Below, piece after piece: positions 2,115-42,942 of a stretch of 46,977 bases of DNA. The position numbers and the translations under genes are program-made. The stretch is from positions 1 through 46,977 of the forward strand of contig DASTFE010000225.1 in assembly GCA_035708905.1 (NCBI GenBank). Reading direction: 5' to 3'. The notes beneath the pieces are model-generated. The model was not told where the DNA came from, ran no database searches, and saw nothing but the letters and a program-made list of their open reading frames with translations. This DNA is from Acidimicrobiales bacterium (GTDB lineage Bacteria; Actinomycetota; Acidimicrobiia; Acidimicrobiales; VFJN01). The stretch's first letter is position 1, and each line of letters starts with the position of its first letter.

Positions 2115-2133
2115 ATCTGACGTCGCGTCAGAT
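2115..2133. promoter_or_regulatory. Palindromic operator candidate, family ATCTGAC-N5-GTCAGAT (site A)
   Basis: ATCTGAC GTCGC GTCAGAT, with perfect 7-8 bp arms. On the minus strand it is preceded by and overlaps a -10-like TAGAAT (CCGTAGAATCTGAC...), upstream of the SDR gene 1183-2094. Confidence 0.65.
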
Positions 2134-2661: not shown

Positions 2662-3135
2662 GTGCCGGTCCGCGAGCCCGTCGTCGTCACCTTCCACGAG
2701 CAGCACCGCGCGCCGGTCGTGGCCCGCATGGTGGCCATGACCGAGGCCCGCGCCGGCTGGATCAACCTCTCGCCCGGGCTCGACGTCGACGTGCCGCCAC
2801 CCCGGTCGGCCCTGGCCTCGCTGTTCTCGGGCCGGGGGCCGGCGGTGCCGCTGGGCACGTGGTACCCGGCACGGCGCCGCGATCCCACGATGGTGGGCAT
2901 CGAGCACGGTCAGGGGCCGGGTGCGCTCGACCTGCTGGCCGACCGGGGCCTGCCGTTGCCCGACGGCTGGCGCCGGCTGCAGGACCACGCCAAGCGCGGC
3001 CTCGTGCTCGTCCCCTCCCCCGCCGCCGGGCCCGCCGAGCTCGACGCCGTGCTCGACTGGTTGCTGCGAGCGGCCGGTGCCCTGTGCCCCGTGCCCCGCA
3101 CGGGCGAGTGGCGGGCCTACTGCTACGAGCCCTGA
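2662..3135 (+). CDS. Hypothetical protein
   Basis: 157-aa ORF with a GTG start, coding-like composition (...GWINLSPGLDVDVPPP...GEWRAYCYEP). Its 3' end overlaps the convergent acyl-CoA synthetase by 13 nt. The start is uncertain; internal Met codons are possible. Confidence 0.5.
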   Translation: MPVREPVVVTFHEQHRAPVVARMVAMTEARAGWINLSPGLDVDVPPPRSALASLFSGRGPAVPLGTWYPARRRDPTMVGIEHGQGPGALDLLADRGLPLPDGWRRLQDHAKRGLVLVPSPAAGPAELDAVLDWLLRAAGALCPVPRTGEWRAYCYEP

Positions 3136-4736
3136 GCGGCCTTCTCGGCCACGTCGCGGGCCCAGCGGTAGTCGGCCTTGCCCGAGGGCGACCGGACGAC
3201 GGCGTCGACCAGCACCAGCCGCTTGGGCGCCTTGTAGCCGGCCAGCGTGGCCTTGCAGTGCGCGGCGAGGTCGTCCAGCGTCGGGGCGGTGCCGGGCACC
3301 GGCTGCACCACGGCGGCCACGGCCTGGCCCCACCGGTCGTCGGGCACGCCCACCACCAGGCAGTCGTAGACGGCCGGGTGGCCCTTGAGCGTGCCCTCGA
3401 CCTCCTCCGGGAACACCTTCTCGCCCCCGGTGTTGATGCTGACCGAGCCCCGGCCGAGCAGCTCGATCGCCCCGTCGGCCCCGACCGAGGCCATGTCGCC
3501 CGTCACCAGCCACCGCTCGCCGCCGCGCTCGACGAAGGTGGCAGCGGTGGCGACCGGGTCGTTGTAGTAGCCCAGCGGCAGGTGTCCGCCGGCCAGCACC
3601 TGGCCCACCACGCCCGAGCCGGGCTCGACCTCGTCGCCGTCGAGGTCGACGACGATCGTGGGCTTGGTGGGCTGGTCGAAGCGCACCAGGCTCGCCCCGG
3701 CCGGCCGCTCGCCCGCCGCCACCCGCATCGCCCCCTGCGCGCCCGCCTCGGACGAACCGAAGCCGTCGGTCACCATCACGTGCGGCAGCGAGGCGAAGAT
3801 CCGCTCGCGGGTGCTGGCGGCCATGGGCGCGCCGCCGTTGGACACCGAGAACAGCGACGACGCGTCGTGGCCGCGCCCCTCGGCGGCCGCCGCATCCCAG
3901 GCGTCGAGCAGCGGCCGGGCCACGGCGTCACCCACCACGGTCAGCATGTTCACCTTCTCGGCCGCCACGGTGCGCCACACGGCGTCGGGGTCGAGCGAGC
4001 CGGGCATCAGCACGACCTTGCTGCCGGCGAAGAGCCACGAGAGGGTGGTCCACTGGGCGGCGGCGTGCATCATCGGCGCCAGCGGCAGGTAGCAGAGGGG
4101 TTGGTCGAGGATGCGGGCCGGCAGCTCGTCGGGACGCTCGACCGGGCCCTGCATGCGCATCGGGTCGCCGCCGCCGATGCAGGCGTAGAAGGCGTCGACG
4201 TGGCGCCACACGACGCCCTTGGGCAGCCCCGTGGTGCCACCCGTGTAGATGATGTAGTGGTCGTCGTCGCCCCGGCCGTCGACGACCGGGCGGTCTGCCG
4301 GGGCGGCGGCCAGCACCGCGTCGAGCTCGTCGCCGGTCACCAGGGTGAAGCGCAGGCCGGGCAGCTCGGCCGCCACCGCGGCCACGGTGTCGCGCAGCGA
4401 CGGCTGCGTGATCACCGCCACCGCGTCGCTGTTGTCGAGCAGGTGGTCCAGCTCGTCGGCGACGTAGCGGTGGTTGACGTTGATGGTGACGGCGCGCAGC
4501 TTCCAGGCCGCCAGCATGGCCTCGACGTACTCGGCGCAGTTCTCGAGGTAGAGGGCGACGTGGTCGCCCGGCCCGATGCCCCGGCCGGCCAGGTGGTGCG
4601 CCAGCCGGTTGGCCCGCTCCTCGAGCTGCGCGTAGCTGCGCCGCTGGTCGCCCACGACCAGCGCCTCGCGCTCGGGCACCGCGTCGGCCGCCATCTCCCA
4701 CACGTCGGCCATGTTGAACGTGCGGGGCACGGTCAT
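3123..4736 (-). CDS. Acyl-CoA synthetase / AMP-dependent ligase (FadD-like)
   Basis: Starts MTVPRTFNMADVWE. AMP-binding motifs IIYTGGTTGLPKGV, TGDMASV, GGEKVFPEEVE, and the C-terminal PSGKADY lysine. Its ATG (4734-4736) overlaps the upstream LLM stop (ATGA). The 868-aa track ORF is this gene plus out-of-frame read-through. Confidence 0.92.
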   Translation of the reverse strand: MTVPRTFNMADVWEMAADAVPEREALVVGDQRRSYAQLEERANRLAHHLAGRGIGPGDHVALYLENCAEYVEAMLAAWKLRAVTINVNHRYVADELDHLLDNSDAVAVITQPSLRDTVAAVAAELPGLRFTLVTGDELDAVLAAAPADRPVVDGRGDDDHYIIYTGGTTGLPKGVVWRHVDAFYACIGGGDPMRMQGPVERPDELPARILDQPLCYLPLAPMMHAAAQWTTLSWLFAGSKVVLMPGSLDPDAVWRTVAAEKVNMLTVVGDAVARPLLDAWDAAAAEGRGHDASSLFSVSNGGAPMAASTRERIFASLPHVMVTDGFGSSEAGAQGAMRVAAGERPAGASLVRFDQPTKPTIVVDLDGDEVEPGSGVVGQVLAGGHLPLGYYNDPVATAATFVERGGERWLVTGDMASVGADGAIELLGRGSVSINTGGEKVFPEEVEGTLKGHPAVYDCLVVGVPDDRWGQAVAAVVQPVPGTAPTLDDLAAHCKATLAGYKAPKRLVLVDAVVRSPSGKADYRWARDVAEKAAQGS

Positions 4737-5863
4737 GGCCGCTGCGCCGCCGCCTCGCGTCGGTAACGGGTGGTCGAGTGCTCGGGGTCGGTGTCGAACT
4801 GGGGGATCACCTCGCGGCCGAACAGCTCCATCGACCCGACGACGACCTCGGTGGCCAGCGTGTTGGTGGTGGGGCTGAACGTGAGCTGGTCGAACCCCAT
4901 GTCGACCCAGCGCTGCACCGACCGGGCGCAGTCGTCGGGGTCGCCGACCGCGATGTAGCCCTCGGCCGAGAGCTGCTCGACCTGCTCGGGGGTGGGCTCG
5001 GGGATCTTCTCGGGCCACGGGGGCAGGTGCTTGGGGCGGGGCACGTTGTCGAGCCAGTGATAGGCGAGCGACGAGTAGTAGTTCATGCCCATGTTGGCCG
5101 CGGTCTCGAACGCCTTGGCGCGGTCCTCCATGCACAGCATGTTGGTCACGCCCATGATGTTGTCGTTGACGTAGTCGCCCACCGGCGTCGCATCGCGGAT
5201 GGCGGTCTTGTAGGACTTGACGAACGGCTCCATGTCGCTGGGCCGGCCGATGGCGAAGCAGAAGACGCCGAGGCCCATCTCGCCGGCCTCGGTGAAGGTG
5301 CCCGGGCTGCCGCCCGCCACCCACATGGCCGGGTGCAGCGGCCCGTGCGGCTTGGGGAACACCTTGCGCTCGGGCATGCGGAAGAACTCGCCGTCGTAGC
5401 TGTAGGGCGCGTCCTTCCACATCTTCGGGATCTCGCGGATCGTCTCGCGCCACATCGCCTTGGTGATGTCGACGCTCGGGATGTCGAAGCCGAGCACCTC
5501 GGTGCTCGACGAGCCGCGCCCGGTGCCGAACTCGAACCGGTTGTTCGTCAGGTGGTCGAGCAGGGCCACGTTCTCGGCCACGCGCTGGGGCTTGTTGACC
5601 GGCGGCGTGATGTTGAAGATGGCCGAGCCCAGGTGCACCCGCTCGGTCTGGCCGGCGCAGTAGCCGAGGAAGGCCTCGGGACCGGGCATGTGGCTGTACT
5701 CGTCGAGGAAGTGGTGCTGGGGGCACCACACGTACTTGAAGGCGTTGCGGTCCGCGGCCTTGGCGATCTCGACGTTGCGGAAGATCCGCTTGTGCTCCGC
5801 GTCGGGGTCCTGATCGCGCTCGAAGCGCGGGACGAAAAGCTGGGCGAAGACGCCGAACTCCAT
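4733..5863 (-). CDS. LLM-class (luciferase-like) flavin/F420-dependent oxidoreductase
   Basis: Starts MEFGVFAQLFVPRFERDQD..., preceded by SD AAGGAG. Luciferase-like TIM-barrel signature stretches (NRFEFGTGRGSS, HPAMWVAGGSP). 376 aa. Confidence 0.9.
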   Translation of the reverse strand: MEFGVFAQLFVPRFERDQDPDAEHKRIFRNVEIAKAADRNAFKYVWCPQHHFLDEYSHMPGPEAFLGYCAGQTERVHLGSAIFNITPPVNKPQRVAENVALLDHLTNNRFEFGTGRGSSSTEVLGFDIPSVDITKAMWRETIREIPKMWKDAPYSYDGEFFRMPERKVFPKPHGPLHPAMWVAGGSPGTFTEAGEMGLGVFCFAIGRPSDMEPFVKSYKTAIRDATPVGDYVNDNIMGVTNMLCMEDRAKAFETAANMGMNYYSSLAYHWLDNVPRPKHLPPWPEKIPEPTPEQVEQLSAEGYIAVGDPDDCARSVQRWVDMGFDQLTFSPTTNTLATEVVVGSMELFGREVIPQFDTDPEHSTTRYRREAAAQRP

Positions 5864-5880: not shown

Positions 5881-6957
5881 TCAGGATCCGGGCACCGCGA
5901 GCACGCCGCGGTTGAGCTTGCCGTGGTGCAGGTCGTCGAGGGCGCGGGTGATCTGGTCGAGCGGGTAGACCTGGCTGACCATCTCGTCGAGCAGCAGGCG
6001 CCCGTCCTTGTAGAAGCTCACGAGCAGCGGGATGTCGTGGTGCGGGCGGGTGGCGCCGTAGCGGCAGCCCAGGATCGACTTGTCGTTGTAGAGGTCGTTG
6101 ACCACGAAGCTGGCCTCGGTGCCCAGCTTGGGCACGCCCAGCAGCGTGAGCGTGCCGCCCCAGTCGAGCAGCGCGACGCCCTGGCGGATGAGCGCCGGAT
6201 GGCCCACGCACTCGAACACGTGGTCGACGCCACCGGGCAGGCCCCGGTCCTTGACCGCGGCCACGGTGTCGTCCACCGCGCCGGCGTCGACGAAGTCGGT
6301 CGCGCCGAACTGCCGGGCGACCGCCTCCTTGGCCGGGTTGGCGTCGATGGCGACGATGCGCCCGGCAGCGGCGATGCGGGCCGCCTGGATGGCCGACTGG
6401 CCGATGCCGCCCGCGCCGATGACCGCCACCGTCTGGCCGGGCTGCACTTTCGCCCGGTTGAGCACCGCGCCGGCGCCCGTGACCACCGCGCAGCCGATCA
6501 GGCAGGCGGAGCTGAGCGGCACCTCGGGATCGATCACCACGGCCTGCGTCTCGGCGACCACCACCTGCTCGGTGAACACCCCGGTGTTGGCGAAGCTGAA
6601 CGCCTTGTCGCCGCCGACGGTGAAGGGCCGACCGAGCCGGCCCATGGTGTCGCGGCAGTGGGTCGGCTGGCCCCGGTCGCAGGCGTCGCAGCGACCGCAG
6701 TTCCCCAGCGTCGTCAGCACCACGTGGTCGCCGACGGCCACCTTGGTGACCGCCGAGCCCACCTGCTCGACCACGCCCGCGCCCTCGTGGCCCAGCACCA
6801 CCGGCGTCGGGAACGGGATGGTGCCGTCGATAACCGACACGTCGCTGTGGCAGAGCCCGGCGTTGACGATGCGCACCCGCACCTCATGGGGGTGCGGGTC
6901 GCGCACGGCGACGTCGTCGCGCACCTCCAGCTCCCCCGTCCAGACAATCGCTCTCAT
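5881..6957 (-). CDS. Zinc-dependent alcohol dehydrogenase (MDR family)
   Basis: Starts MRAIVWTGE.... GLCHSD and GHEGAGVV (catalytic Zn), GNCGRCDACDRG (structural Zn), VIGAGGIGQ (NAD fold). 358 aa. Confidence 0.92.
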   Translation of the reverse strand: MRAIVWTGELEVRDDVAVRDPHPHEVRVRIVNAGLCHSDVSVIDGTIPFPTPVVLGHEGAGVVEQVGSAVTKVAVGDHVVLTTLGNCGRCDACDRGQPTHCRDTMGRLGRPFTVGGDKAFSFANTGVFTEQVVVAETQAVVIDPEVPLSSACLIGCAVVTGAGAVLNRAKVQPGQTVAVIGAGGIGQSAIQAARIAAAGRIVAIDANPAKEAVARQFGATDFVDAGAVDDTVAAVKDRGLPGGVDHVFECVGHPALIRQGVALLDWGGTLTLLGVPKLGTEASFVVNDLYNDKSILGCRYGATRPHHDIPLLVSFYKDGRLLLDEMVSQVYPLDQITRALDDLHHGKLNRGVLAVPGS

Positions 6958-6967
6958 CGTCTTTCCC

Positions 6968-8431
6968 TCATCCCGGCCAGACGAGCGACTGGAGCTCGCT
7001 GTAGGCGTGCATGGCGAAGCTGCCGCGGTCGCGGCCGACGCCCGAGAGCTTGAAGCCGCCGAACGGCGCCTCGGGGCTCTGCTGGGCGGTGTTGATGGCG
7101 ACGCTGCCCGAGCGCAGCTGGCGGGCGACCCGCATGCCGCGCGCGGTGTCGCCGGTGAACACGTAGTCGTTGAGGCCGAAGTCGGTGCCGTTGGCCAGCG
7201 CCACGCCCTCCTCCTCGTCGTCGAAGGCCAGCACGACGACCACGGGACCGAAGATCTCCTGCTGCACCACCGACATGCCGGGCTTGCAGTCGACCAGCAG
7301 GGTGGGAGCCACGTAGAAGCCGGCGTCCATCTCGGGGCGCTCGCCCCCCGCCAGCAGCGTGGCGCCCTCGTCGACACCGGTCCGCACGTGGGCCTCGATG
7401 CGGTCGCGCTGGGCGGCCGAGATCACGGGGCCCACCACCGTGTCGGGGGCCAGTGGGTCGCCCACCACCAGGCGACCCGCCGCGGCCTGCAGGCCGGCCA
7501 CGAGCTGGTCGTGGATGCCGCGCTGGACGACGACCCGGGTGGGCGCCGTGCAGATCTGCCCCGAGTGGAAGGCCCACACGCTCGAGATCGCGCCGACGGC
7601 GGTGCGCAGGTCGGCGTCGTCGAACACCACCGCGGCACCCTTGCCGCCCAGCTCGAGCAGCAGCCGCTTCATGTCGCGGCCCGCGATCTCGCCGATGCGC
7701 TGCCCCACGGCCGTCGAGCCGGTGAAGCTGACCATGTCGACGTGCGGCGAGGCGACGAGCGCCTCGCCCGCCTCGGCGCCGCTGCCGGTCACCACGTTGA
7801 CCACGCCCGGCGGGAACCCGGCCTCGACCACCGCATCGGCGAAGCGCAGGACGGCGAGCGGGTCCTGGGGTGCGGGCTTGACCACCACCGTGTTGCCCAT
7901 GGCCAGGGCGGGCCCGACCTTGCCGGCCATGTTGACCAGCGGGAAGTTGTAGGGCGTGATGCAGGCGACCACCCCGACCGGGCGCCGCTCGACCACGGTG
8001 CCCAGCAGGCCCCCGGGGGCGAGCGCCGTGGCCGGCATCTCGGTCGGGGGCAGCGCGATGGCCATGGGCTCGGCGGCGCCCCGGGCGTAGCGGCGGAGGC
8101 GGTCGACCGTCTGGGGCACCTGCATGGTCTGCGCCACCCGCAGGGTGGCGCCCGTCTCGGCCTGCACGAGCGGCACCAGGTCGTCGGCCTGGCGGGCCAG
8201 GATGTCGGCCAGCCGGTCGAGCAGCTCGCCGCGGTGCCGGGGCGTCGTGCGGCTCCAGTCGCCGAAGGCGCCGGCCGCCGCCCGGGTGGCCTGCTCGACC
8301 TGCTCGACCGACACCTCGGGCGCCCGGCCGACCACGGCCTCGGTCGCCGGGTTGACGATGTCGTAGGCGCCCCGAGCGCCGGCTGAACGGTCGCCCCCCA
8401 CGAGCACGAGATGGTCGTCGCTCACGGCCAC
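6968..8431 (-). CDS. NAD(P)-dependent aldehyde dehydrogenase
   Basis: ...LVGGDRSAGARGAYDIVNPATEAVVG..., ELGGKG, FHSGQICTAPTR (catalytic Cys), PFGGFKLSGVGRD. GTG start at 8431. The second GTG at 8425 fits a leaderless TAGTCT-N7-GTG layout better. The 659-aa track ORF overextends across the operator. Confidence 0.88.
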   Translation of the reverse strand: MAVSDDHLVLVGGDRSAGARGAYDIVNPATEAVVGRAPEVSVEQVEQATRAAAGAFGDWSRTTPRHRGELLDRLADILARQADDLVPLVQAETGATLRVAQTMQVPQTVDRLRRYARGAAEPMAIALPPTEMPATALAPGGLLGTVVERRPVGVVACITPYNFPLVNMAGKVGPALAMGNTVVVKPAPQDPLAVLRFADAVVEAGFPPGVVNVVTGSGAEAGEALVASPHVDMVSFTGSTAVGQRIGEIAGRDMKRLLLELGGKGAAVVFDDADLRTAVGAISSVWAFHSGQICTAPTRVVVQRGIHDQLVAGLQAAAGRLVVGDPLAPDTVVGPVISAAQRDRIEAHVRTGVDEGATLLAGGERPEMDAGFYVAPTLLVDCKPGMSVVQQEIFGPVVVVLAFDDEEEGVALANGTDFGLNDYVFTGDTARGMRVARQLRSGSVAINTAQQSPEAPFGGFKLSGVGRDRGSFAMHAYSELQSLVWPG

Positions 8432-8434
8432 GAG

Positions 8435-8452
8435 ACTAGAACGTGTTCTAGT
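8435..8452. promoter_or_regulatory. KstR-type operator box
   Basis: ACTAGAAC GT GTTCTAGT has perfect 8-bp arms. The core TAGAACGTGTTCTA fits the published KstR consensus TnnAACnnGTTnnA. It overlaps a -10-like TAGTCT of the ALDH operon and lies in the divergent region shared with the GT1 gene. Confidence 0.7.
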
Positions 8453-8546
8453 TACCGGCAAGCCGACCGTCGCCCGACCCTCGCCTGTCGTCCGGCCGCC
8501 GCACCCGCGTCGCCCGACGGGTCGCCCGACCGGCGACACTGGGACC

Positions 8547-9710
8547 GTGCGCGCCCTGTTCGCCTCGACCGCCGGCACCGGACACCTGGGCCCGTTGGTG
8601 CCGTTCGCCTCGGCCTGCGCGGCGAGCGGCCACGAGGTCGCCGTGGCAGCGCCCGCCTCGTTCGCCGATGCCGTCGGACGCGCGGGGTTCGTCCACCTGG
8701 CCGTCGCCGACCCGCCCGAGGACGAGCTGAGCCGCCTCTTCGCCGCCCTGCCCGGGCTGGCACTGGAGGAGGCCAACGAGGTGGTGATCCGTGACGTCTT
8801 CGCCGGTGCGGACGCCCGCGCCGCGCTCGCGGGCCTGCACGAGATCGTCCGCACCTGGCGGCCCGACGTCGTCGTGCGCGAAACCGCCGAGTTCGCCTCG
8901 TACGTCGTCGCCGAGCACCACGGGGTCCCCCATGTGCAGGTCGCCATCGGACCCGCCGGCCTCGACGCCTTCGGGCTCCCCCGCGTCGACGGCCCACTGC
9001 GCGCGCTGGGGGCGGCGCGGGGCGCGGACGGGTTGCGCGACGCGCCGGTGCTGACGCTGGTCCCCGAGGTCCTGGACGAGCAGCGCGCCGGTGCCGGCCC
9101 GGTTCACCGGTTCCGCTACGAGCCCGCACCGGCAGGCGGGGCCGGGCGTCTGCCCTCGTGGGGCGACCCGGATTCTCCTCTCGTCTACGCCACGTTCGGC
9201 ACGGTGGCCGCGGGCCTCGGCCTGTTCCCCGACCTCTATCGGGATGCGATCGACGCCCTCGCCGACCTGCCCGTCCGCGTGCTCCTGACCATCGGCGACG
9301 CGGGCGACGCCGACGGCCTGGGGCCCCTGCCCGGCAACGTCCGCGTCGAGCGGTTCCGGCCGCAGTCCGAGGTGATGCCGGCCGCGGCGGCCATGATCGG
9401 CCACGGCGGGTTCGGCACCACGATGACCGGCCTCGCCCACGGTGTTCCCATGGTCGTCGTGCCCCTGTTCGCGATCGACCAGCACCTCAACGCGGCGGCG
9501 GTCGACCAGGTCGGCGCCGGCGTGGTGCTCGACGGCGGGCCGGCGGCGGCGCGGGCGCTCGCGGGGGCCGTCACGGCTGTGCTCGGCGAACCGTCGTTCC
9601 GGGCGCGGGCCCGGACCGTCGCCGGCGAGATCGCGTCGCTGCCCGCGGCGGCGAGCGGGGTGGCCGTGCTCGAGGACATCGCCGCCACCGGCCCGGCGCA
9701 GCCGCGCTAG
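8547..9710 (+). CDS. GT1-family (UDP-glycosyltransferase / MGT-like) glycosyltransferase
   Basis: 387 aa, GTG start. The N-terminus (FASTAGTGHLGPLVP) and the C-terminal nucleotide-sugar motif IGHGGFGTTMTGLAHGVPMVVVPLFAIDQHLNA are typical of GT1 GT-B enzymes. Confidence 0.88.
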   Translation: MRALFASTAGTGHLGPLVPFASACAASGHEVAVAAPASFADAVGRAGFVHLAVADPPEDELSRLFAALPGLALEEANEVVIRDVFAGADARAALAGLHEIVRTWRPDVVVRETAEFASYVVAEHHGVPHVQVAIGPAGLDAFGLPRVDGPLRALGAARGADGLRDAPVLTLVPEVLDEQRAGAGPVHRFRYEPAPAGGAGRLPSWGDPDSPLVYATFGTVAAGLGLFPDLYRDAIDALADLPVRVLLTIGDAGDADGLGPLPGNVRVERFRPQSEVMPAAAAMIGHGGFGTTMTGLAHGVPMVVVPLFAIDQHLNAAAVDQVGAGVVLDGGPAAARALAGAVTAVLGEPSFRARARTVAGEIASLPAAASGVAVLEDIAATGPAQPR

Positions 9711-11146
9711 GGGGCGTCGGCGGCCGCCGGCGCCGTCACCGCGGTGGCCTGCATCTCGGCTCGCTCCTGCTCGAGGAGCTGGTTCTCCTCGTAGATGGCG
9801 GTGACGATGGCGCGGGCGTCGTCCTCGAGCGTGCGGCGGGCCCGCAGCAACAGCAGCAGTCCCAGGATCACCGGAGGGAACGTGACGTAGAAGGCGGCGA
9901 CCAGCGATCCGGTGAGCGACGAGATGCCGCCGACCAGCACGGGAGCCAGCGCGGTGCCGAACACCGATGTCGTCAGCGCCATGGCCGAGGCGCCCACACC
10001 CCGCGAGTCGGGCGGCACCACGTCGAGCATCGCCGCCCGCAGCCCCGGCGCCGCGCCGGCGGCGGCGGTCACGCCCACGAACTGCAGCGCCAGGCGCAGC
10101 GCCACCGGCTCGACCGCGAACGAGAGCATGAACAGCAGCGAGCACGCGACCGCCGACCAGACGACGATGACGATGCGACCGCCCATCCAGCGGTGGTGGA
10201 ACCGGTCGGAGAAGGCGCCACCGCCGAGGGTGCCGATGAGCCCCCCGATGCCCAGCAGGCCGCCGGTGACCGCCGTGGCCTGGGTGATGCTCATGGCGGA
10301 GTAGCGCTCGTGGTAGATGGCGAGCCAGGTGCCGATGCCCGACACGGTGAACAGCAGCGCGCCCACGCCGACCAGCACGTAGCGCATGGTGCGGATGCCG
10401 AAGATCATCTTGAGCTGGCTGGCCAGCTCGGTGCCGGCGAGCCGGGCGAACTGGCGGACCGTCAGGCCCTCGGCTCCGCTCGGCCGGTCGACGACCCGGG
10501 GCGGCAGCGCCTCGATCTCGTCCCAGGTCATGGTCTCGGGCAGCTCGGCCTCGCCCCGGCGCGGCTCGCGCAGGCGGAACACCGCCAGCGCGGCCACGGC
10601 GCCGGGCACGCCGACCACGGCGAACGCCCACCGCCAGCCCACCGCCTCGCCCACCCAGCCGCCGAGCGCCAGGCCGATGCCGCCGCCGAGGAAGAAGCTG
10701 ACCTGCTGGAACGAGAACACCCGGCCCCGCATCCGCGACGGGTAGCTGTCGCCCAGGTACGAGGTCGACGCCGGGTCGTCGACGGCCTGGCCGATGCCCA
10801 TGGCGGCCCGGGCCACCAGCAGGTTCGCGTAGTTGACCGCGGTCGCCGACAGCAGGATGAGGCCGCTCCAGCTCAGCAGCGTCCATCCCACCACCCGCGT
10901 GCGCCGGAAGTGGTCGGCCACCCACCCGGCCGGGATGGTGGCCAGCGCGCTGACCAGCACGAACACCGATGACAGCAGGCCCAGCTCGGTGTCGGTGAGC
11001 CCCCACTCGTCCTCGAGGATGGGCAGCACGCCCCGGGCGACCGACACGTCGATCTGGTCGACCAGGCTGACCACCGCCATCACCACGAGCGGCCCCAGCG
11101 GGAAGCGACGGCCCTCGCGTCGGACGTCTGCGCGCTCGGTCGCCAT
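9707..11146 (-). CDS. MFS transporter
   Basis: 479 aa, about 12 hydrophobic segments. MFS loop motif GWVADHFRRTRV between TM2 and TM3. SD GGGGGTGAG before the ATG. Its stop overlaps the GT1 stop by 4 nt (CTAG). Confidence 0.88.
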   Translation of the reverse strand: MATERADVRREGRRFPLGPLVVMAVVSLVDQIDVSVARGVLPILEDEWGLTDTELGLLSSVFVLVSALATIPAGWVADHFRRTRVVGWTLLSWSGLILLSATAVNYANLLVARAAMGIGQAVDDPASTSYLGDSYPSRMRGRVFSFQQVSFFLGGGIGLALGGWVGEAVGWRWAFAVVGVPGAVAALAVFRLREPRRGEAELPETMTWDEIEALPPRVVDRPSGAEGLTVRQFARLAGTELASQLKMIFGIRTMRYVLVGVGALLFTVSGIGTWLAIYHERYSAMSITQATAVTGGLLGIGGLIGTLGGGAFSDRFHHRWMGGRIVIVVWSAVACSLLFMLSFAVEPVALRLALQFVGVTAAAGAAPGLRAAMLDVVPPDSRGVGASAMALTTSVFGTALAPVLVGGISSLTGSLVAAFYVTFPPVILGLLLLLRARRTLEDDARAIVTAIYEENQLLEQERAEMQATAVTAPAAADAP

Positions 11147-11325
11147 CTCACCCCCGATCGTCGGCGGCCCCCGGGACGGCCGAGACTAGTCGCACCGGCG
11201 CTGCAACAAGCTGTGGCGGCGCGGGCAGGCCGTCACGCCGTCGACCGGCCGCCGGGAACCCCGGGCCGACGCCACCTGAGCCGCCCGAACCGGGCGACGT
11301 CCGGTCGGGGACGGTTCCCTCCGAC

Positions 11326-11339
11326 TAGAACGTGTTCTA
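11326..11339. promoter_or_regulatory. KstR-type operator box
   Basis: TAGAACGTGTTCTA is identical to the core at 8437-8450, and 17 nt (GACTAGAACGTGTTCTA) are shared. It overlaps TACAGT (11338-11343), which sits exactly 6 nt before ATG 11350. Confidence 0.7.
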
Positions 11340-11349
11340 CAGTCGGGGC

Positions 11350-12585
11350 ATGACCGCAGACGGGCCCGACATCCCGAAGATCATCTCGGTCGACGACCAC
11401 GTGGTCGAGCCACCCGACCTGTGGACCGAGCGACTGCCGGCGAAGTACGCGGAGGTCGGGCCCCGTGTGGTCCGCGACCGGGCCAGGTTCAGCTTCACCG
11501 GGGGCGTGTTCAGCTACGAGAAGGGCGTGCCCGACGGCGAGTGGTGCGACTGGTGGCTGTACGACCAGCTCGTCTACCCGTTCCCCAAGCTGTCGGCCGC
11601 GGTCGGCTTCGACGACCTCGACGTCACCCCCACCACCTACGACGACATCCGACCCGGCTGCTGGATCCAGTCCGAGCGGCTGGCCGACATGGACACCAAC
11701 CACGTCGAGGCCTCGATCTGCTTCCCCAACACGCTGCCCCGCTTCTGCGGGCAGACGTTCTACGAGCAGGGCGTCAAGCGCGAGGGCGGCGACCCCGAGC
11801 TCGCGCTGCTGTGCGTCAAGGCCTACAACGACTGGATGATCGACGACTGGTGCGCCGGCGAGGGCGCGGGGCGGCTCATCCCGCTCACCATGATCCCGCT
11901 GTGGGACGCCGAGCTGGCCGCCGCCGAGGTGCGCCGGTGCGCGGACCGCGGCAGCCACGCCGTCGCCTTCTCCGAGAACCCGCACCCCCTGGGGCTGCCG
12001 TCGATCCACTCGGGCCACTGGGATCCCTTCTTCACCGCCTGCCAGGAGACCGAGACGGTGGTGTGCATGCACATCGGCTCGTCGTCGCGCATGCCCGCCA
12101 CCTCACCCGACGCCCCGTTCATCGTGTCGTCGACGCTCACCTTCCAGAACGCCATGGGCTCGATGCTCGACTTCATCTTCTCGGGCACGCTCGAGCGGTT
12201 CCCCACCCTGAGGATCGCCTACTCCGAGGGCCAGGTCGGGTGGATGCCCTACGTGCTCGAGCGGGCCGACAAGCTGTGGGCCGAGCGCAGCGACAACAGC
12301 TTCGGCACGTCGCTGCCCAACCCGCCCACCAGCTACCTGCCCGGGCGGGTGTACGGGTGCATCTTCGACGACGAGACCGGGCTGCGGAACCGCGAGGCCG
12401 TCGGGATGGACCAGATCTGCTTCGAGACCGACTACCCCCACGCGGACTCGACCTTCCCCCACTCGAAGAAGGTGGCGGCCGACATCTGCACCCAGGCCGG
12501 GCTCGACGACGCCGAGACGTACAAGCTGCTGCGGGGCAACGCCATCACCGCCTTCGGGCTCGAGCGGTTCGGCATCACCGAATGA
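11350..12585 (+). CDS. Amidohydrolase-2 family metal-dependent hydrolase
   Basis: MTADGPDIPKIISVDDHVVEPPDLW..., NHVEASICFP, YNDWMIDDW, MHIGSSS, ETDYPHADS (metal ligands of the amidohydrolase TIM barrel). I prefer ATG 11350 to the track start 11332, which lies inside the operator. Confidence 0.88.
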   Translation: MTADGPDIPKIISVDDHVVEPPDLWTERLPAKYAEVGPRVVRDRARFSFTGGVFSYEKGVPDGEWCDWWLYDQLVYPFPKLSAAVGFDDLDVTPTTYDDIRPGCWIQSERLADMDTNHVEASICFPNTLPRFCGQTFYEQGVKREGGDPELALLCVKAYNDWMIDDWCAGEGAGRLIPLTMIPLWDAELAAAEVRRCADRGSHAVAFSENPHPLGLPSIHSGHWDPFFTACQETETVVCMHIGSSSRMPATSPDAPFIVSSTLTFQNAMGSMLDFIFSGTLERFPTLRIAYSEGQVGWMPYVLERADKLWAERSDNSFGTSLPNPPTSYLPGRVYGCIFDDETGLRNREAVGMDQICFETDYPHADSTFPHSKKVAADICTQAGLDDAETYKLLRGNAITAFGLERFGITE

Positions 12586-13370
12586 GCACGACGGAGCGAG
12601 AGCCCGACTGGGACCTGGGCGGCGAGATCGCGCTGGGCAGCGCGCTGTTCACCCTGGTCGACCCCCAGCGCGGCCACGAGGTGGCCTACAACCGCTGGTA
12701 CGAGCGCGACCACTTCTACGCCGGGTGCATGAACGGCCCCTTCTACTTCGCCGGCCGGCGCTGGGTGTGCACCAAGGACCTCAAGGACCTGCGCCTCGGC
12801 AGCGACCAGCCGCTCTTCGGCGACGACCGGGCGGGCTCGTACCTGGCGCTGTACTGGACGCCCAAGGGCCGCTTCCGCGACAACACCGACTGGTCGACCC
12901 GCCAGGTGCACTGGCTGCACGCCAACGGGCGGATGTTCGCCGAGCGCGACCACGTCCACACGCTGCTCTACCTGTACAAGGGTGCCGAGGCCCGGGACGC
13001 CGACGGCGTGCCGCCCGAACTGGCGCTCGACCACCCGTTCCGCGGCCTGGGCGCCGTGATCGTCGAGCCCCGCGACGGCGGCACGCCGCCGCGGCCGGTG
13101 CTGCCACCGGGCTCGCCCGTGGCGCTGGTGCTCAGCTTTCGGGGCGTGCCCCTGCCCCCCGACGCCCCGGTGACCCAGCCCGGCACCGACGGCGCCGAGG
13201 CCCGCGAGCTGCAGCTGTGGTTCGCCGATGCCGAGCCCGAGGGGTGGTGGGCCGCGGTGGGCGACTACGCGGACGCCGTCGTCGAGTCGCGCCAGGGCGT
13301 GGTGCGGTGGGCGTCGCCGTTCGTGCCCACCGTGCCCGGCACCGACCGCTACACCGACCAGCTGTGGTGA
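12582..13370 (+). CDS. Conserved hypothetical protein, translationally coupled to the amidohydrolase
   Basis: ATG 12582 overlaps the amidohydrolase stop (ATGA). 262 aa (MSTTEREPDWDLGG...AYNRWYERDHFYAG...) with coding-like composition. Family not recognised. Confidence 0.65.
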   Translation: MSTTEREPDWDLGGEIALGSALFTLVDPQRGHEVAYNRWYERDHFYAGCMNGPFYFAGRRWVCTKDLKDLRLGSDQPLFGDDRAGSYLALYWTPKGRFRDNTDWSTRQVHWLHANGRMFAERDHVHTLLYLYKGAEARDADGVPPELALDHPFRGLGAVIVEPRDGGTPPRPVLPPGSPVALVLSFRGVPLPPDAPVTQPGTDGAEARELQLWFADAEPEGWWAAVGDYADAVVESRQGVVRWASPFVPTVPGTDRYTDQLW

Positions 13371-19045: not shown

Positions 19046-19711
19046 TCACGGGGAGGGCGGGCGCTGGCCGGTGGTGCCCCAGTAGACCTGGCGGGCGACC
19101 GAGATGCGCACGTCGGCCGTGCGGATACCCCAGAACTCGAAGCCGAGGTGGTGGGCGGCCACGTTGGCCAGGGTGGTGACCAGCGTGCCGGCCTGCGCCA
19201 TGGGCTCGACACCCAGGTTCTTGCCCTCGGCCTGCAGGTCGCTGATGACCCGGGCCAGCTCGGTGGTCACGGCGTTGAGCAGCCGCACCCGGATGTTGCG
19301 GAAGCGCCGGTCGCCCTCGTCGGTGCTGAGATCGACCACGCGCAGCACAGGGCGGTGCTGGTCCCAGAACTCGAAGAAGGCGTCGGTCAGGTCGAGCGCC
19401 GTCTGGTAGCCGGCCCTGCCCTTCCAGTTGCCCTCGGCCACGAGCCGCACCAGGCGCTCGCCGTCGAGCGCCATCTCCTGGGCCAGCACGAGGATCGCGG
19501 CCTCGACGTCGGCGAAGTACTGGTAGAACGTCGCCGGCGAGGTGCCGGCCTCGCGGGCGATGTCGATGACCTTGATCGACCGGTAGGACGTCGTGCGGAG
19601 CATGGCCGCGGTGCACTCGAGCAGCCGCTGCCGCGTGGCCCGCCCCCGCCGCCCCGGCACCCGCCCGTCCGCCGCCCGCAGGTCTTCGGCCTGCTCCACC
19701 TGTTCAGCCAC
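19046..19711 (-). CDS. TetR-family transcriptional regulator
   Basis: 221 aa, GTG start. N-terminal HTH RQRLLECTAAMLRTTSYRSIKVIDIAREAGTSPATFYQYFADVEAA. It is the only DNA-binding regulator I can recognise in the window. Confidence 0.9.
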   Translation of the reverse strand: MAEQVEQAEDLRAADGRVPGRRGRATRQRLLECTAAMLRTTSYRSIKVIDIAREAGTSPATFYQYFADVEAAILVLAQEMALDGERLVRLVAEGNWKGRAGYQTALDLTDAFFEFWDQHRPVLRVVDLSTDEGDRRFRNIRVRLLNAVTTELARVISDLQAEGKNLGVEPMAQAGTLVTTLANVAAHHLGFEFWGIRTADVRISVARQVYWGTTGQRPPSP

Positions 19712-22794: not shown

Positions 22795-23541
22795 ATGCCG
22801 ACCCACCTGCACTCGGTCGTGTTCGACGCCGCCGACCCGCCGGGGCTGGCCCGGTTCTGGGCGGCGCTGACCGGCTGGACCGTCAGCCACGAGGGTCCCG
22901 ACGAGGTGGTGGTCGGGCCGTCCGCCGGGGCCGGCCTGCCGCTCGTGTTCGTCCCTGTCGACGACCCCAAGGTGGTCAAGAACCGGGTGCACATCGATCT
23001 CGACAGCCGCTCGGCCGACGACCAGGCCGCCCTCGTCGACCTCGCGCTGGGGGCCGGGGCGACGCGGGCCGACATCGGCCAGGGCGCCACGCCCTGGGTG
23101 GTGCTGGCCGACCCGGAGGGCAACGAGCTGTGCGTCCTCGACCCCCGACCCGACTACGCCGAGGCCGGTGCGATCGCCGCGATCGTGCTGGACACGCCCG
23201 ACCCGGGCGCTCTGGCGCCGTTCTGGGCCGCGGCCACGGGGTACGCCGTCGAGACCCAGCCCGACGGCGACGTCCGGCTGGTCCCGCCCGGGGGCCGCGG
23301 CCCGCGGCTCGAGCTGCTGAGGAACGACGACCCCAAGGTGGCGAAGAACCGGGTGCACCTGGACGTCGCGCCCGGCGCCGCCGACGACCACGGCGCGGAG
23401 GTCGAACGCCTGCGGGCCCTCGGCGCCACCGACGCCGACGTCGGCCAGGGCCGGCGTCCGTGGACGGTGCTCGCCGACCCGCACGGCAACGAGCTGTGCG
23501 TGCTCGGCCCTCGTGACCGAACCGACGCCCGTGTAATCTGA
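22795..23541 (+). CDS. Tandem VOC (glyoxalase/bleomycin-resistance/dioxygenase) domain protein
   Basis: 248 aa made of two homologous halves (FWAALTGW...KNRVHIDL...PWVVLADPEGNELCVL and FWAAATGY...KNRVHLDV...PWTVLADPHGNELCVL). Confidence 0.85.
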   Translation: MPTHLHSVVFDAADPPGLARFWAALTGWTVSHEGPDEVVVGPSAGAGLPLVFVPVDDPKVVKNRVHIDLDSRSADDQAALVDLALGAGATRADIGQGATPWVVLADPEGNELCVLDPRPDYAEAGAIAAIVLDTPDPGALAPFWAAATGYAVETQPDGDVRLVPPGGRGPRLELLRNDDPKVAKNRVHLDVAPGAADDHGAEVERLRALGATDADVGQGRRPWTVLADPHGNELCVLGPRDRTDARVI

Positions 23542-23555
23542 CACGGCGTCAGATT
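23535..23555. promoter_or_regulatory. Palindromic operator candidate, family ATCTGAC-N5-GTCAGAT (site B)
   Basis: AATCTGAC ACGGC GTCAGATT has perfect 8-bp arms. It overlaps a -10-like TAATCT and the VOC stop codon. SD GGGAG and ATG 23576 follow. Confidence 0.65.
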
Positions 23556-29832: not shown

Positions 29833-29851
29833 ATCTGACGGGTCGTCACAT
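29833..29851. promoter_or_regulatory. Palindromic operator candidate, family ATCTGAC-N5-GTCAGAT (site C)
   Basis: ATCTGAC GGGTC GTCACAT has one arm mismatch. On the minus strand the layout is operator-N7-TAGCCT(29820-29825)-N6-ATG(29813) of the HMGCS-like gene. Confidence 0.65.
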
Positions 29852-31576: not shown

Positions 31577-31595
31577 ATCTGACGGACCGTCACAT
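31577..31595. promoter_or_regulatory. Palindromic operator candidate, family ATCTGAC-N5-GTCAGAT (site D)
   Basis: ATCTGAC GGACC GTCACAT is followed by N7, TAGCCT (31603-31608), N6 and ATG 31615. It lies in the divergent region shared with the GT39 gene. Confidence 0.65.
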
Positions 31596-37188: not shown

Positions 37189-37206
37189 TCTGACGCTCCG
37201 TCAGAT
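37188..37206. promoter_or_regulatory. Palindromic operator candidate, family ATCTGAC-N5-GTCAGAT (site E)
   Basis: ATCTGAC GCTCC GTCAGAT has perfect arms. It overlaps a -10-like TAATCT (37186-37191) and the stop of the preceding gene. SD GGGAAAGG and ATG 37243 follow. Confidence 0.65.
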
Positions 37207-42923: not shown

Positions 42924-42942
42924 ACCTGACGACCCGTCAGAC
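42924..42942. promoter_or_regulatory. Palindromic operator candidate, family ATCTGAC-N5-GTCAGAT (site F)
   Basis: ACCTGAC GACCC GTCAGAC keeps the CTGAC/GTCAG core intact. It is followed by N7, TACCGT (42950-42955), N6 and ATG 42962. Confidence 0.6.

What the first reader, a model, noticed from the sequence alone, without database searches (positions are those of the whole stretch)
8434..11339. Two identical 17-nt KstR-type operators (GACTAGAACGTGTTCTA) overlapping -10 elements
8434-8450 and 11323-11339 are identical on the plus strand. The core TAGAACGTGTTCTA fits the published mycobacterial KstR (cholesterol-catabolism repressor) consensus TnnAACnnGTTnnA at all constrained positions. Each overlaps a TANNNT hexamer placed 6-7 nt before a start codon: TACAGT-N6-ATG 11350, and TAGTCT-N7-GTG 8425 on the minus strand. 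A bound repressor would therefore occlude the -10 of a leaderless promoter. No KstR-like gene is obvious in the window, since the local TetR sits behind the other palindrome family. The regulator is therefore probably encoded elsewhere, which implies that two separate repressor systems interleave on this island.
Basis: partly seen in the sequence, partly recalled or inferred. Interest (0 to 1): 0.7.

Follow-up and report, generated by a model that had tools for sequence, protein, structure and literature searches.

The report
KstR-type operators on leaderless promoters
Two identical copies of the operator used by the mycobacterial lipid/cholesterol repressor KstR sit on the start sites of two gene sets in an uncultured Acidimicrobiales bacterium, so this known repressor-operator pair also occurs in a distant class of Actinomycetota.

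Summary
GACTAGAACGTGTTCTA occurs exactly at 8434-8450 and 11323-11339, and these are the only two TnnAACnnGTTnnA sites in the window (0.02 expected).

The window is from an uncultured Acidimicrobiales bacterium (74% G+C), not a mycobacterium.

- **Targets.** Box 1 precedes an aldehyde dehydrogenase, Zn-ADH, luciferase-like monooxygenase and acyl-CoA synthetase operon (8425 down to 3123). Box 2 precedes a PF04909 protein carrying dinuclear-oxygenase motifs (DitZ/PtmU3-like), plus a conserved unknown gene (11350-13370).
- **Conservation.** In about 85 homologous loci the half-sites are nearly invariant (53 of 54 boxes) while the centre and flanks vary. A TANNNT hexamer overlaps the box edge, and the start codon lies 6-8 nt further on in most loci. 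This supports repressor occlusion of leaderless promoters.
- **Regulator.** No KstR homologue lies in the window or near any homologous locus. Acidimicrobiales do encode a KstR-like TetR with the same Pfam domains. Its helix-turn-helix is 74-81% identical to Mtb KstR and its ligand domain 18-25%. The same box sat just upstream of its own operon in 7 of 7 lineages.
- **Limits.** The protein falls below NCBI's KstR cut-off, and no steroid-ring genes are present. A cholesterol role is unproven.

This is a new member of a known kind.

The parts
8434..8450 (.). Box 1: the 17-nt GACTAGAACGTGTTCTA. The 14-bp palindromic core TAGAAC-GT-GTTCTA is at 8437-8450, and the extended palindrome ACTAGAACGTGTTCTAGT spans 8435-8452.
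   Evidence: A box is conserved at the same place upstream of the aldehyde dehydrogenase in 22 of 30 homologous loci by the strict pattern. Most of the rest carry a GAGAAC variant or were cut by my slice.
8433..8438 (-). -10-like hexamer TAGTCT on the minus strand. Its first two bases are the last two of the box. It lies 7 nt before GTG 8425.
   Evidence: TANNNT in 22 of 22 boxed orthologous upstream regions, with the start codon 6-8 nt further on in 18 of 22.
6968..8425 (-). Aldehyde dehydrogenase (485 aa, GTG start), the first gene of the box-1 operon. The transcript is predicted to be leaderless.
   Evidence: Pfam Aldedh E 4e-155; coding frame from GC3.
5881..6957 (-). Zn-dependent alcohol dehydrogenase (358 aa).
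   Evidence: Pfam ADH_N and ADH_zinc_N; start position.
4733..5863 (-). Luciferase-like flavin monooxygenase (376 aa).
   Evidence: Pfam Bac_luciferase E 7e-42; start position.
3123..4736 (-). Acyl-CoA synthetase (AMP-binding, about 537 aa), the last gene of the box-1 operon.
   Evidence: Pfam AMP-binding and AMP-binding_C; the ATG overlaps the upstream stop codon.
8547..9710 (+). GT1 (EryCIII/UDPGT-like) glycosyltransferase. This is cargo between the two boxes and is absent from the closest relative, L131.
   Evidence: Pfam. Window 8464-9745 has no counterpart in L131, which is 97% identical at the protein level and 93-98% at the nucleotide level in the flanks.
9707..11146 (-). MFS transporter. 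This is cargo between the two boxes and is shared with L131, L132, L133 and L142.
   Evidence: Pfam MFS_1.
11323..11339 (.). Box 2: identical 17-nt GACTAGAACGTGTTCTA, with the core at 11326-11339.
   Evidence: Of 77 metagenome homologues with enough upstream sequence, 50 have a box within 150 nt of the start, nearly all of them among those at least 77% identical.
11338..11343 (+). -10-like hexamer TACAGT overlapping the last two bases of box 2. It lies 6 nt before ATG 11350.
   Evidence: TANNNT in 39 of 54 boxed upstream regions, with the start 6-8 nt after the hexamer in 38 of 54. The others have 15-50 nt leaders, some with a GGAGG-type ribosome-binding site.
11350..12585 (+). PF04909 'amidohydrolase' (411 aa), predicted to be an amidohydrolase-related dinuclear oxygenase (DitZ/PtmU3-like hydroxylase).
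   Evidence: Pfam. Best solved relatives are DitZ 8UYR (E 2e-49) and PtmU3 (E 9e-36). It carries the ARO signature motifs D-x-H (DDH at 15) and D-x-P-H-x-D (DYPHAD at 361) (PMC13154177).
12582..13370 (+). Conserved 262-aa protein with no Pfam match. Its start overlaps the stop of the oxygenase gene (ATGA).
   Evidence: A similarly placed gene with no Pfam match follows the oxygenase in L001 and L002-L004.

Best explanation
The two boxes are operators for a trans-encoded, KstR-like TetR-family repressor (TetR_N + TetR_C_20). A repressor dimer bound to TAGAAC-NN-GTTCTA would cover the -10 hexamer, which begins with the last two bases of the box, and the transcription start, which coincides with the start codon. 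That would shut off two leaderless transcription units.

- **Unit 1 (8425 down to 3123):** aldehyde dehydrogenase, alcohol dehydrogenase, flavin monooxygenase and acyl-CoA synthetase.
- **Unit 2 (11350-13370):** a DitZ/PtmU3-like dinuclear oxygenase plus a conserved unknown protein.

By analogy with KstR, an acyl-CoA thioester made by these enzymes (hydroxylation, then alcohol, aldehyde, acid and CoA ester) probably releases the repressor.

The two units were ancestrally divergent neighbours sharing one box. In this lineage cargo genes (an MFS transporter, then a glycosyltransferase) lie between two copies of the box.

**Shown here:** the sequence, its non-random occurrence, its conservation, the promoter geometry, and the existence of a KstR-like regulator with the same box in front of its own operon in relatives.

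**Inferred:** binding, repression, leaderless transcription, the nature of the ligand, and presence of the regulator in this particular genome.
For: 1. **Non-random occurrence.** There are two exact sites against 0.02 expected.

2. **Identity to verified KstR operators.** The kstR operator of Mtb and M. smegmatis is ACTAGAACGTGTTCTAATAG. KstR binds 29-bp probes containing this motif as a dimer, and the motif overlaps the -10 (PMC1995591).

3. **Phylogenetic footprint.** Perfect half-sites occur in 53 of 54 boxes upstream of oxygenase homologues. The central dinucleotide varies (AC 19, GC 18, GT 10, AG 4, CG 3) and the flanks diverge.

4. **Conserved geometry.** TANNNT overlaps the box end in 39 of 54 loci on the oxygenase side and 22 of 22 on the aldehyde dehydrogenase side. 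The start codon lies 6-8 nt beyond it in 38 of 54 and 18 of 22. In L005 a single box sits in a 37-bp gap between the two divergent start codons, which leaves no room for leaders.

5. **Regulator.** A tblastn search with Mtb KstR (sequence verified 100% against PDB 5AQC) finds box-adjacent homologues in the Acidimicrobiales loci L024 and L027 (E about 2e-25).
   - The family carries TetR_N + TetR_C_20, like KstR.
   - Its best NCBIfam model by about 30 orders of magnitude is KstR.
   - The helix-turn-helix is 74-81% identical to Mtb KstR, against 18-25% for the ligand domain.

6. **Autoregulation.** A perfect box lies about 10-12 nt upstream of the kstR-like gene or of its ACAD-kstR operon in 6 of 7 distinct lineages. 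In the seventh (L027) the box is about 104 nt upstream, across an ACAD remnant.

7. **Co-occurrence.** Some kstR-like contigs (74.3% G+C) come from the same metagenome samples as relatives whose oxygenase is 89-93% identical to the window's.

8. **Taxonomic distribution.** By my tally of the record titles, 107 of the 120 genome hits returned for ACTAGAACNNGTTCTA are Actinomycetota, and about ten of those are Acidimicrobiia.
Against: - **The window's own genome could not be searched.** Only the 47-kb window and short Logan contigs exist. Presence of the regulator there is inferred from relatives.
- **Orthology to KstR is unresolved.** The regulator scores 138-146 bits on the NCBIfam KstR equivalog model, whose cut-off is 280. 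It is equidistant (30-35% identity) from Mtb KstR and from an uncharacterised Rhodococcus TetR, PDB 3BJB.
- **No binding, transcription-start or expression data exist.**
- **A simple sigma-70 consensus scan finds no promoter**. This is expected for high-G+C actinobacteria, which often lack a -35 element, but it adds no support.
- **About 30% of homologous oxygenase promoters lack TANNNT at the box edge.** These have 15-50 nt leaders instead.
Confidence: 0.8

Rival explanations
1. The boxes are operators, but for a different DNA-binding protein than the KstR-like TetR_C_20 family. Candidates are the local TetR (19046-19711), the HTH_67 protein (26301-27179) or an unseen paralogue.
For: The cognate regulator was not found in the window. 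TetR-family fatty-acid regulators often recognise AAC..GTT-type palindromes (my own knowledge). The KstR-like family has at least one equally distant paralogous branch, 3BJB.
Against: The local TetR has a different C-terminal domain (TetR_C_38). It does not hit KstR in the PDB or NCBIfam searches. No conserved regulator gene accompanies the locus in about 85 homologous loci. In contrast, the KstR-like gene carries the same perfect box on its own promoter in 7 of 7 lineages, and its recognition helix is almost the same as that of KstR, which is known to bind this sequence.
Confidence: 0.1
2. This is a true KstR orthologue running a cholesterol or steroid catabolic regulon, as in Mycobacterium. 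On this reading the effector is a 3-oxo-steroid-26-oyl-CoA.
For: The operator is identical to the mycobacterial one. JGI annotates family members as 'cholesterol catabolism regulator'. In another Acidimicrobiia MAG (L019) a box lies between an enoyl-CoA hydratase gene and a CYP125-like P450; solved CYP125 enzymes match it at E about 1e-92 and a reconstructed ancestral CYP125 at 5.5e-140. DUF35/thiolase (Ltp/ChsH-type) genes carry a box next to kstR-like. Mycobacterial KstR also controls an aldehyde dehydrogenase, fadD8, an amidohydrolase-type gene and luciferase-like oxidoreductases (plus my own knowledge of the Rv annotations).
Against: The ligand-binding domain is only 18-25% identical to Mtb KstR. 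The protein is below the equivalog cut-off. The 47-kb window contains no KshA, KstD or Hsa-type ring-degradation genes. The box-2 target resembles diterpenoid hydroxylases (DitZ, PtmU3) rather than steroid enzymes. No literature linking KstR with Acidimicrobiia was found.
Confidence: 0.2
3. The two 17-mers are a by-product of DNA insertion, that is, direct repeats flanking the glycosyltransferase/MFS cargo like a target-site duplication. On this reading they have no regulatory role.
For: The copies are direct repeats in the same orientation and flank 2.9 kb of variable cargo. The cargo differs even in a relative that is 97% identical.
Against: The same palindrome is present where there is no cargo. 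It occurs as a single box in 26-113 bp alignment intervals, and as two boxes within 97-313 bp. It sits at a fixed distance from the start codons and also recurs at unrelated promoters, including that of the regulator itself. The identity does not extend beyond the operator. No transposase or integrase domain was found among the window's predicted proteins.
Confidence: 0.03

Closest known systems
KstR (Rv3574 / MSMEG_6042) repressor and its operator TAGAAC(N2)GTTCTA in Mycobacterium, Rhodococcus and Nocardia. KstR sites have also been predicted in Nocardioides simplex and are discussed for Saccharopolyspora (PMC1995591, PMC3068626, PMC7593942, PMC9782250).
   Same: The 14-bp palindrome is the same; 16 of the 17 bases equal the kstR self-operator of M. 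tuberculosis. The box overlaps the -10, it is often shared by divergent genes, and the regulator carries the box on its own promoter next to an acyl-CoA dehydrogenase gene. The Pfam architecture is the same (TetR_N + TetR_C_20). The targets are lipid or acyl-CoA metabolism genes of the same enzyme classes (ALDH, FadD, luciferase-like oxidoreductases, P450 CYP125-like, thiolase/DUF35).
   Different: The host is a different class (Acidimicrobiia). The regulator is only 30-35% identical overall and 18-25% in the ligand domain, and scores below the NCBIfam KstR cut-off. The ACAD gene is co-directional and co-transcribed with kstR-like rather than divergent. No steroid-ring genes are seen. The targets include a DitZ/PtmU3-like dinuclear oxygenase. 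Promoters are predominantly leaderless, with the start codon 6-8 nt after the -10.
PDB 3BJB, an uncharacterised TetR-family regulator of Rhodococcus jostii RHA1 (a paralogue of KstR).
   Same: It is marginally the best solved relative of the Acidimicrobiales protein (E 4e-26 against 6e-24 for KstR) and has a similar helix-turn-helix.
   Different: The depositors give it no specific function, and I did not look for an operator or regulon. Its identity to the Acidimicrobiales protein (31-35%) is no higher than that of KstR.
Amidohydrolase-related dinuclear oxygenases (AROs): DitZ (diterpenoid hydroxylase), PtmU3, SfbO and AibH2 (PMC13154177).
   Same: The box-2 gene product has the PF04909 fold. 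Its best solved relatives are DitZ and PtmU3, and it carries both ARO signature motifs (D-x-H and D-x-P-H-x-D).
   Different: No substrate is known. No Rieske ferredoxin domain was found among the window's predicted proteins. It is instead coupled to a conserved 262-aa protein of unknown family and placed under a KstR-type operator.

Membership tests
KstR operator (KstR box) | 14-bp palindrome TnnAACnnGTTnnA, typically TAGAAC(N2)GTTCTA | tested here: met
   Both sites are TAGAACGTGTTCTA. The motif definition and listed instances come from PMC1995591.
KstR operator (KstR box) | Lies in the promoter and overlaps the -10 region of the repressed gene | tested here: met
   This is sequence geometry only. 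TANNNT shares 2 nt with the box and the start codon is 6-7 nt beyond it. The arrangement is conserved in 38 of 54 and 18 of 22 homologous promoters. Transcription starts were not mapped.
KstR operator (KstR box) | Conserved at orthologous promoters while the surrounding sequence drifts | tested here: met
   53 of 54 boxes have perfect half-sites with a variable centre and flanks.
KstR regulon | A KstR gene is encoded in the same genome | not testable with these tools
   Only the 47-kb window is available and it contains no homologue. The organism is represented elsewhere only by contigs of under 2 kb. Related Acidimicrobiales do encode a KstR-like protein.
KstR regulon | Autoregulation: the box sits on the regulator's own promoter, next to an acyl-CoA dehydrogenase gene | tested here: met
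   Tested in relatives. All 7 kstR-like lineages have a perfect box upstream of kstR-like or of ACAD-kstR: L024, L027, L126-128, L129-130, L214-217, L220-225 and L226. It lies 10-12 nt upstream in six of them and about 104 nt upstream in L027.
KstR protein (NCBIfam NF033703 equivalog) | Score at or above the curated cut-off of 280 bits | tested here: not met
   The Acidimicrobiales proteins score 138-146 bits and Mtb KstR scores 335 bits. KstR is nevertheless their best model by far, with the next model at 51-54 bits.
KstR protein / TetR_C_20 family | TetR_N plus TetR_C_20 (PF17925) domain architecture | tested here: met
   One search shows both domains above the gathering score in L027, P0211 and P0225, as in Mtb KstR.
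KstR protein | Reciprocal best match to KstR among characterised proteins | tested here: inconclusive
   In the PDB search the uncharacterised 3BJB is marginally ahead of KstR. All three are equidistant at about 30-35% identity.
KstR regulon | Controls cholesterol or steroid catabolic genes, with 3-oxo-steroid-CoA as effector | tested here: inconclusive
   The window has no steroid-ring genes. A CYP125-like gene is next to a box in L019. The ligand cannot be tested here.
Leaderless actinobacterial promoter | -10 TANNNT about 6-8 nt upstream of the start codon, with no room for a ribosome-binding leader | tested here: met
   In L005 the two divergent start codons are 37 bp apart. Experimental transcription-start mapping cannot be done here.
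Amidohydrolase-related dinuclear oxygenase (ARO) | PF04909 fold with an N-terminal D-x-H and a C-terminal D-x-P-H-x-D/E motif | tested here: met
   DDH at residue 15 and DYPHAD at 361. The second copy has DDH at 14 and DYPHTD at 357. The motif definition is from PMC13154177. DitZ and PtmU3 are the best PDB matches.

The most novel reading that the evidence does not exclude
The KstR operator/HTH pair may be an ancient module shared by Actinomycetes and Acidimicrobiia in which the DNA-reading half has stayed fixed and the ligand domain has been re-tuned. On this reading, in Acidimicrobiales it controls an undescribed catabolic route for a terpenoid, hopanoid, sterol or branched-alkyl substrate. 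That route would start with a DitZ-like dinuclear oxygenase and end in an acyl-CoA that acts as a new effector. The shared palindromic operator, whose two arms supply both -10 elements of divergent leaderless promoters, would also serve as a recurrent landing site for cargo genes.
Probability: 0.3. Interest if true: 0.55.

Novelty: new member of a known kind. Interest (0 to 1): 0.38.

Why it matters
- **Range of the KstR system.** It places the KstR repressor/operator logic, known from Mycobacterium and its relatives, in the class Acidimicrobiia, a distant and mostly uncultured group that is abundant in soils and waters. I found no literature linking KstR with Acidimicrobiia.
- **A regulon marker for MAGs.** The operator is conserved to the base, so it can be used to find regulon members in Acidimicrobiales metagenome-assembled genomes.
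- **A lead on enzyme function.** The operator ties members of the recently defined dinuclear-oxygenase (ARO) superfamily of unknown substrate to an alcohol, aldehyde, acid and CoA-ester oxidation operon. That gives a testable hypothesis for their role.
- **Repressor evolution.** A conserved DNA-binding domain paired with a strongly diverged ligand domain is a clean natural example of re-tuning a TetR repressor. It could also provide biosensor parts.

This is an extension of known biology, not a new principle.

Tried and rejected
- **Window's own contig.** I looked it up by exact protein. The oxygenase and the PD-(D/E)XK protein are not on record, and the methyltransferase occurs only on Logan contigs of under 2 kb. 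The genome could therefore not be extended or searched for kstR.
- **KstR homologues nearby.** tblastn with Mtb KstR and with the Acidimicrobiales KstR-like protein found nothing in the window or within 6-10 kb of any of about 85 homologous loci.
- **Local TetR (19046-19711) as the regulator.** Rejected. It has a different C-terminal domain (TetR_C_38), its best structural matches are EthR-like, and it does not match KstR.
- **Synteny links to the kstR-like locus.** The window's ABC1 kinase is only about 28% identical to the one beside kstR-like, so I read it as a paralogue. The window's PMT_2 glycosyltransferase has no match there.
- **Sigma-70 promoter and terminator scan of 8300-11500.** It found nothing, which is uninformative for this G+C content.
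- **Rfam scan of the whole window.** No RNA family matched.
- **Longer duplication around the boxes.** Rejected, because the identity ends at 17 nt.
- **My first translation of the L024 kstR-like gene was out of frame.** I ignored that row of the alignment. tblastn gives the correct hit.


Full report
**1. Observation**

The 17-mer GACTAGAACGTGTTCTA is present exactly at 8434-8450 and 11323-11339.
- Allowing three mismatches adds only the reverse reading of the first site. Shuffled sequence gives 0.02 matches.
- The degenerate KstR core TnnAACnnGTTnnA matches these two places and nowhere else in 46,977 bases (0.02 expected).
- TAGAACNNGTTCTA with up to three mismatches adds only four 3-mismatch hits, which I read as lying inside mapped coding regions.
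- The identity between the two copies stops at 17 nt.
TACAGT is at 11338-11343, then 6 nt, then ATG 11350. On the minus strand TAGTCT is at 8438-8433, then 7 nt, then GTG 8425.

**2. Context**

The window is 74% G+C. I mapped genes from third-position G+C, Pfam and start-codon checks.

Box 1 lies upstream of a minus-strand operon:

| Gene | Coordinates |
|---|---|
| Aldehyde dehydrogenase | 6968-8425 |
| Zn alcohol dehydrogenase | 5881-6957 |
| Luciferase-like monooxygenase | 4733-5863 |
| Acyl-CoA synthetase | 3123-4736 |

Box 2 lies upstream of a PF04909 'amidohydrolase' (11350-12585) and an overlapping 262-aa gene with no Pfam match (12582-13370). Between the boxes lie a GT1 glycosyltransferase (8547-9710, +) and an MFS transporter (9707-11146, -).

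The closest relatives of the PF04909 protein (75-92% identity) are almost all unnamed metagenome proteins. The few with an organism name are Acidimicrobiales MAGs. The organism is therefore an uncultured Acidimicrobiales bacterium, not a member of the Mycobacteriales.

**3. Conservation at homologous loci**

I fetched five loci through exact-protein look-ups and 80 more from metagenome contigs.
- *Oxygenase side, presence of a box.* Of 77 metagenome loci with enough upstream sequence, 50 have a box within 150 nt of the start. Nearly all of these are among the homologues at least 77% identical.
- *Oxygenase side, box sequence.* Among 54 boxes, 53 have perfect TAGAAC/GTTCTA half-sites. The central dinucleotide varies (AC 19, GC 18, GT 10, AG 4, CG 3) and the flanks diverge.
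- *Oxygenase side, promoter geometry.* The hexamer starting with the last TA of the box fits TANNNT in 39 of 54. The start codon follows 6-8 nt after it in 38 of 54. The remaining promoters have 15-50 nt leaders, some with GGAGG-type ribosome-binding sites. This is what one expects if transcription starts just downstream of the box in all of them.
- *Aldehyde dehydrogenase side.* All 22 strictly matched boxes are followed by TANNNT, mostly TAGTCT. In 18 of 22 the start codon is 6-8 nt beyond it.

**4. Origin of the two copies**

The aldehyde dehydrogenase and the oxygenase are a conserved divergent pair.
- In L005 a single box sits in a 37-bp gap between the two start codons. Its extended palindrome GACTAGAAC..GTTCTAGTC supplies a TAGTCT hexamer in each direction.
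- Across about 30 loci, intervals up to about 115 bp hold one box. Several intervals of 97-313 bp hold two. Intervals of 0.9-4.4 kb hold one box at each end, with different cargo genes between them.
- The closest relative, L131 (97% protein identity), has the MFS gene but lacks the glycosyltransferase. Window 8464-9745 has no counterpart there.
- The two boxes of a locus are identical in only a minority of loci: the window, L131, L142, L148 and L001.
- The exact 17-nt identity here is therefore a lineage feature layered on a strongly constrained operator. It is not evidence of a mobile-element scar.

**5. The regulator**

The published KstR motif is TAGAAC(N2)GTTCTA. KstR binds as a dimer to 29-bp probes containing it, and the motif overlaps the -10. 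The kstR self-operator in M. tuberculosis and M. smegmatis is ACTAGAACGTGTTCTAATAG (PMC1995591).
- *Nothing local.* tblastn finds no homologue in the window or in any of the homologous loci. The local TetR (19046-19711) has a TetR_C_38 domain and does not resemble KstR.
- *Taxonomic spread of the motif.* A scan of one genome per species for ACTAGAACNNGTTCTA stopped at 120 rows. By my tally of the record titles, 107 of these are Actinomycetota, and about ten of those are Acidimicrobiia.
- *KstR homologues next to boxes.* Among the 120 loci, KstR homologues lie near boxes in Mycobacterium, Gordonia and Williamsia (65-97% identity). They also do so in two Acidimicrobiales MAGs, L024 and L027 (33-35% identity, E about 2e-25).
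- *Size of the Acidimicrobiales family.* At least 2,052 proteins match at E ≤ 1e-20. The few with an organism name are Acidimicrobiales MAGs. JGI labels some of them 'cholesterol catabolism regulator'.
- *Family assignment.* It has the same Pfam architecture as KstR, TetR_N + TetR_C_20. Its best NCBIfam model is the KstR equivalog, at 138-146 bits against 51-54 for the next model, but this is below the 280-bit cut-off.
- *Orthology.* In the PDB it is equidistant from KstR and from the uncharacterised Rhodococcus TetR 3BJB, at about 30-35% identity.
- *Domain-by-domain identity to Mtb KstR.* The DNA-binding domain is 54-62% identical, helices 2-3 are 74-81% identical, and the ligand domain is 18-25% identical.
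- *Autoregulation.* In all seven distinct lineages for which I fetched DNA, a perfect TAGAAC-NN-GTTCTA box precedes the kstR-like gene or a co-directional ACAD-kstR operon. In six it lies 10-12 nt before the start codon. In L027 it lies about 104 nt upstream, across a remnant of the ACAD gene. A second, weaker box (TAGAACCTGTTTCA or TAGAACACGTTTCA) precedes a neighbouring DUF35/thiolase operon in most of them.
- *Co-occurrence.* Some of these contigs have the window's G+C content (74.3%). They come from the same metagenome samples as relatives whose oxygenase is 89-93% identical to the window's.
- *Limit.* This is co-occurrence by sample, not by genome.

**6. What is regulated**

The PF04909 protein's best solved relatives are the diterpenoid hydroxylase DitZ (8UYR, E 2e-49) and PtmU3 (E 9e-36). 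It carries both signature motifs of the amidohydrolase-related dinuclear oxygenases, DDH at residue 15 and DYPHAD at 361. According to PMC13154177, the second motif is not found in characterised hydrolases or decarboxylases of this fold.

Together with the alcohol dehydrogenase, aldehyde dehydrogenase, flavin monooxygenase and acyl-CoA synthetase, this suggests oxidation of a C-H or methyl group through to a carboxylate and then a CoA ester. By analogy with KstR, that ester is the likely inducer. This step is inference.

Box-adjacent genes in other Acidimicrobiia loci include:
- a CYP125-like P450 (solved CYP125 enzymes at E about 1e-92; a reconstructed ancestral CYP125 at 5.5e-140);
- an enoyl-CoA hydratase, a FadD, an ACAD, a thiolase and DUF35 proteins;
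- further PF04909 proteins and a desaturase-like protein.

This is the same kind of lipid and acyl-CoA gene set as the mycobacterial regulon. Neither the window nor the other loci I examined show steroid-ring genes such as KshA, KstD or Hsa. A specific link to cholesterol is therefore unproven. The diverged ligand domain argues for a different, or at least modified, effector.

**7. Verdict**

The mechanistic reading is strongly supported by comparative evidence, although nothing has been measured: a repressor operator overlapping the -10 of leaderless promoters, with the repressor encoded elsewhere. The element works like a KstR operator.

The regulator belongs to the KstR/TetR_C_20 family but fails the curated equivalog test, so 'KstR-like' is the defensible name.

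KstR sites outside the Mycobacteriales have already been predicted in Nocardioides and are discussed for Saccharopolyspora. I found nothing on Acidimicrobiia. This is a new member of a known kind and of moderate interest.

**8. What led nowhere**
- Exact-protein look-ups for the window's own contig.
- Synteny links through the ABC1 kinase or PMT_2 genes.
- The sigma-70 consensus scan.
- The Rfam scan.

Noticed in passing
window 2115-2133, 23536-23554, 29833-29851, 31577-31595, 37188-37206, 42924-42942: There is a second operator-like palindrome family, ATCTGAC-N5-GTCAGAT, with 6 sites against 0.06 expected. The sites lie upstream of an SDR, the second PF04909 oxygenase, the DUF35/thiolase operon, a CoA-transferase, an ACAD and an enoyl-CoA hydratase. 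In some relatives it replaces the KstR-type box upstream of oxygenase homologues (L189, L194/L196, L204). In L146 and L153 both motifs sit in one promoter. The regulator is unknown. The HTH_67 protein at 26301-27179 is an untested candidate. None of the sites adjoins the TetR gene at 19046-19711.
   Followed up: partly
window 11350-12585 and 23576-24778: Both PF04909 'amidohydrolases' carry the D-x-H and D-x-P-H-x-D motifs of the dinuclear-oxygenase (ARO) superfamily. For the first copy the closest solved relatives are DitZ and PtmU3; the second copy was not searched against the PDB. They are probably hydroxylases rather than hydrolases. One is under the KstR-type box and the other under the ATCTGAC-type box.
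   Followed up: partly
window 8464-9745: The glycosyltransferase gene and its flanks are absent from the closest relative, L131 (97% protein identity, 93-98% nucleotide identity in the flanks). L131 has only the MFS gene between the two boxes. This points to a recent insertion here or a deletion there.
   Followed up: partly
window 8426-11349; L001, L002, L005, L131-L184: The interval between the divergent aldehyde dehydrogenase and oxygenase genes ranges from 37 bp to 4.4 kb. It holds different cargo in different lineages: MFS, glycosyltransferase, DUF6198, or a two-component system. A box is retained at each end, so the interval looks like an insertion hot spot.
   Followed up: partly
window 12582-13370: A 262-aa protein with no Pfam match has a start codon that overlaps the stop of the oxygenase gene. 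A similarly placed gene with no Pfam match follows the oxygenase in L001 and L002-L004, so it may be a partner subunit.
   Followed up: no
L027 845-972: Between the box and the kstR-like gene lies a roughly 100-nt remnant that looks like the fused N- and C-terminal ends of the ACAD gene. Other lineages have that gene intact at this position, so this appears to be an internal deletion that leaves kstR-like under the same operator.
   Followed up: no
L019 1500-1605: In an Acidimicrobiia MAG, a perfect box lies between a CYP125-like P450 gene and an enoyl-CoA hydratase gene. This is the only steroid- or branched-lipid-flavoured target seen.
   Followed up: partly
L047, L011, L023, L058: Exact matches to the box also occur in Deltaproteobacteria, Kofleriaceae and Polyangiales MAG contigs. 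L047 also encodes a KstR homologue (31% identity, E 1e-25) about 4 kb from the box. The system may therefore extend outside Actinomycetota or have been transferred.
   Followed up: no
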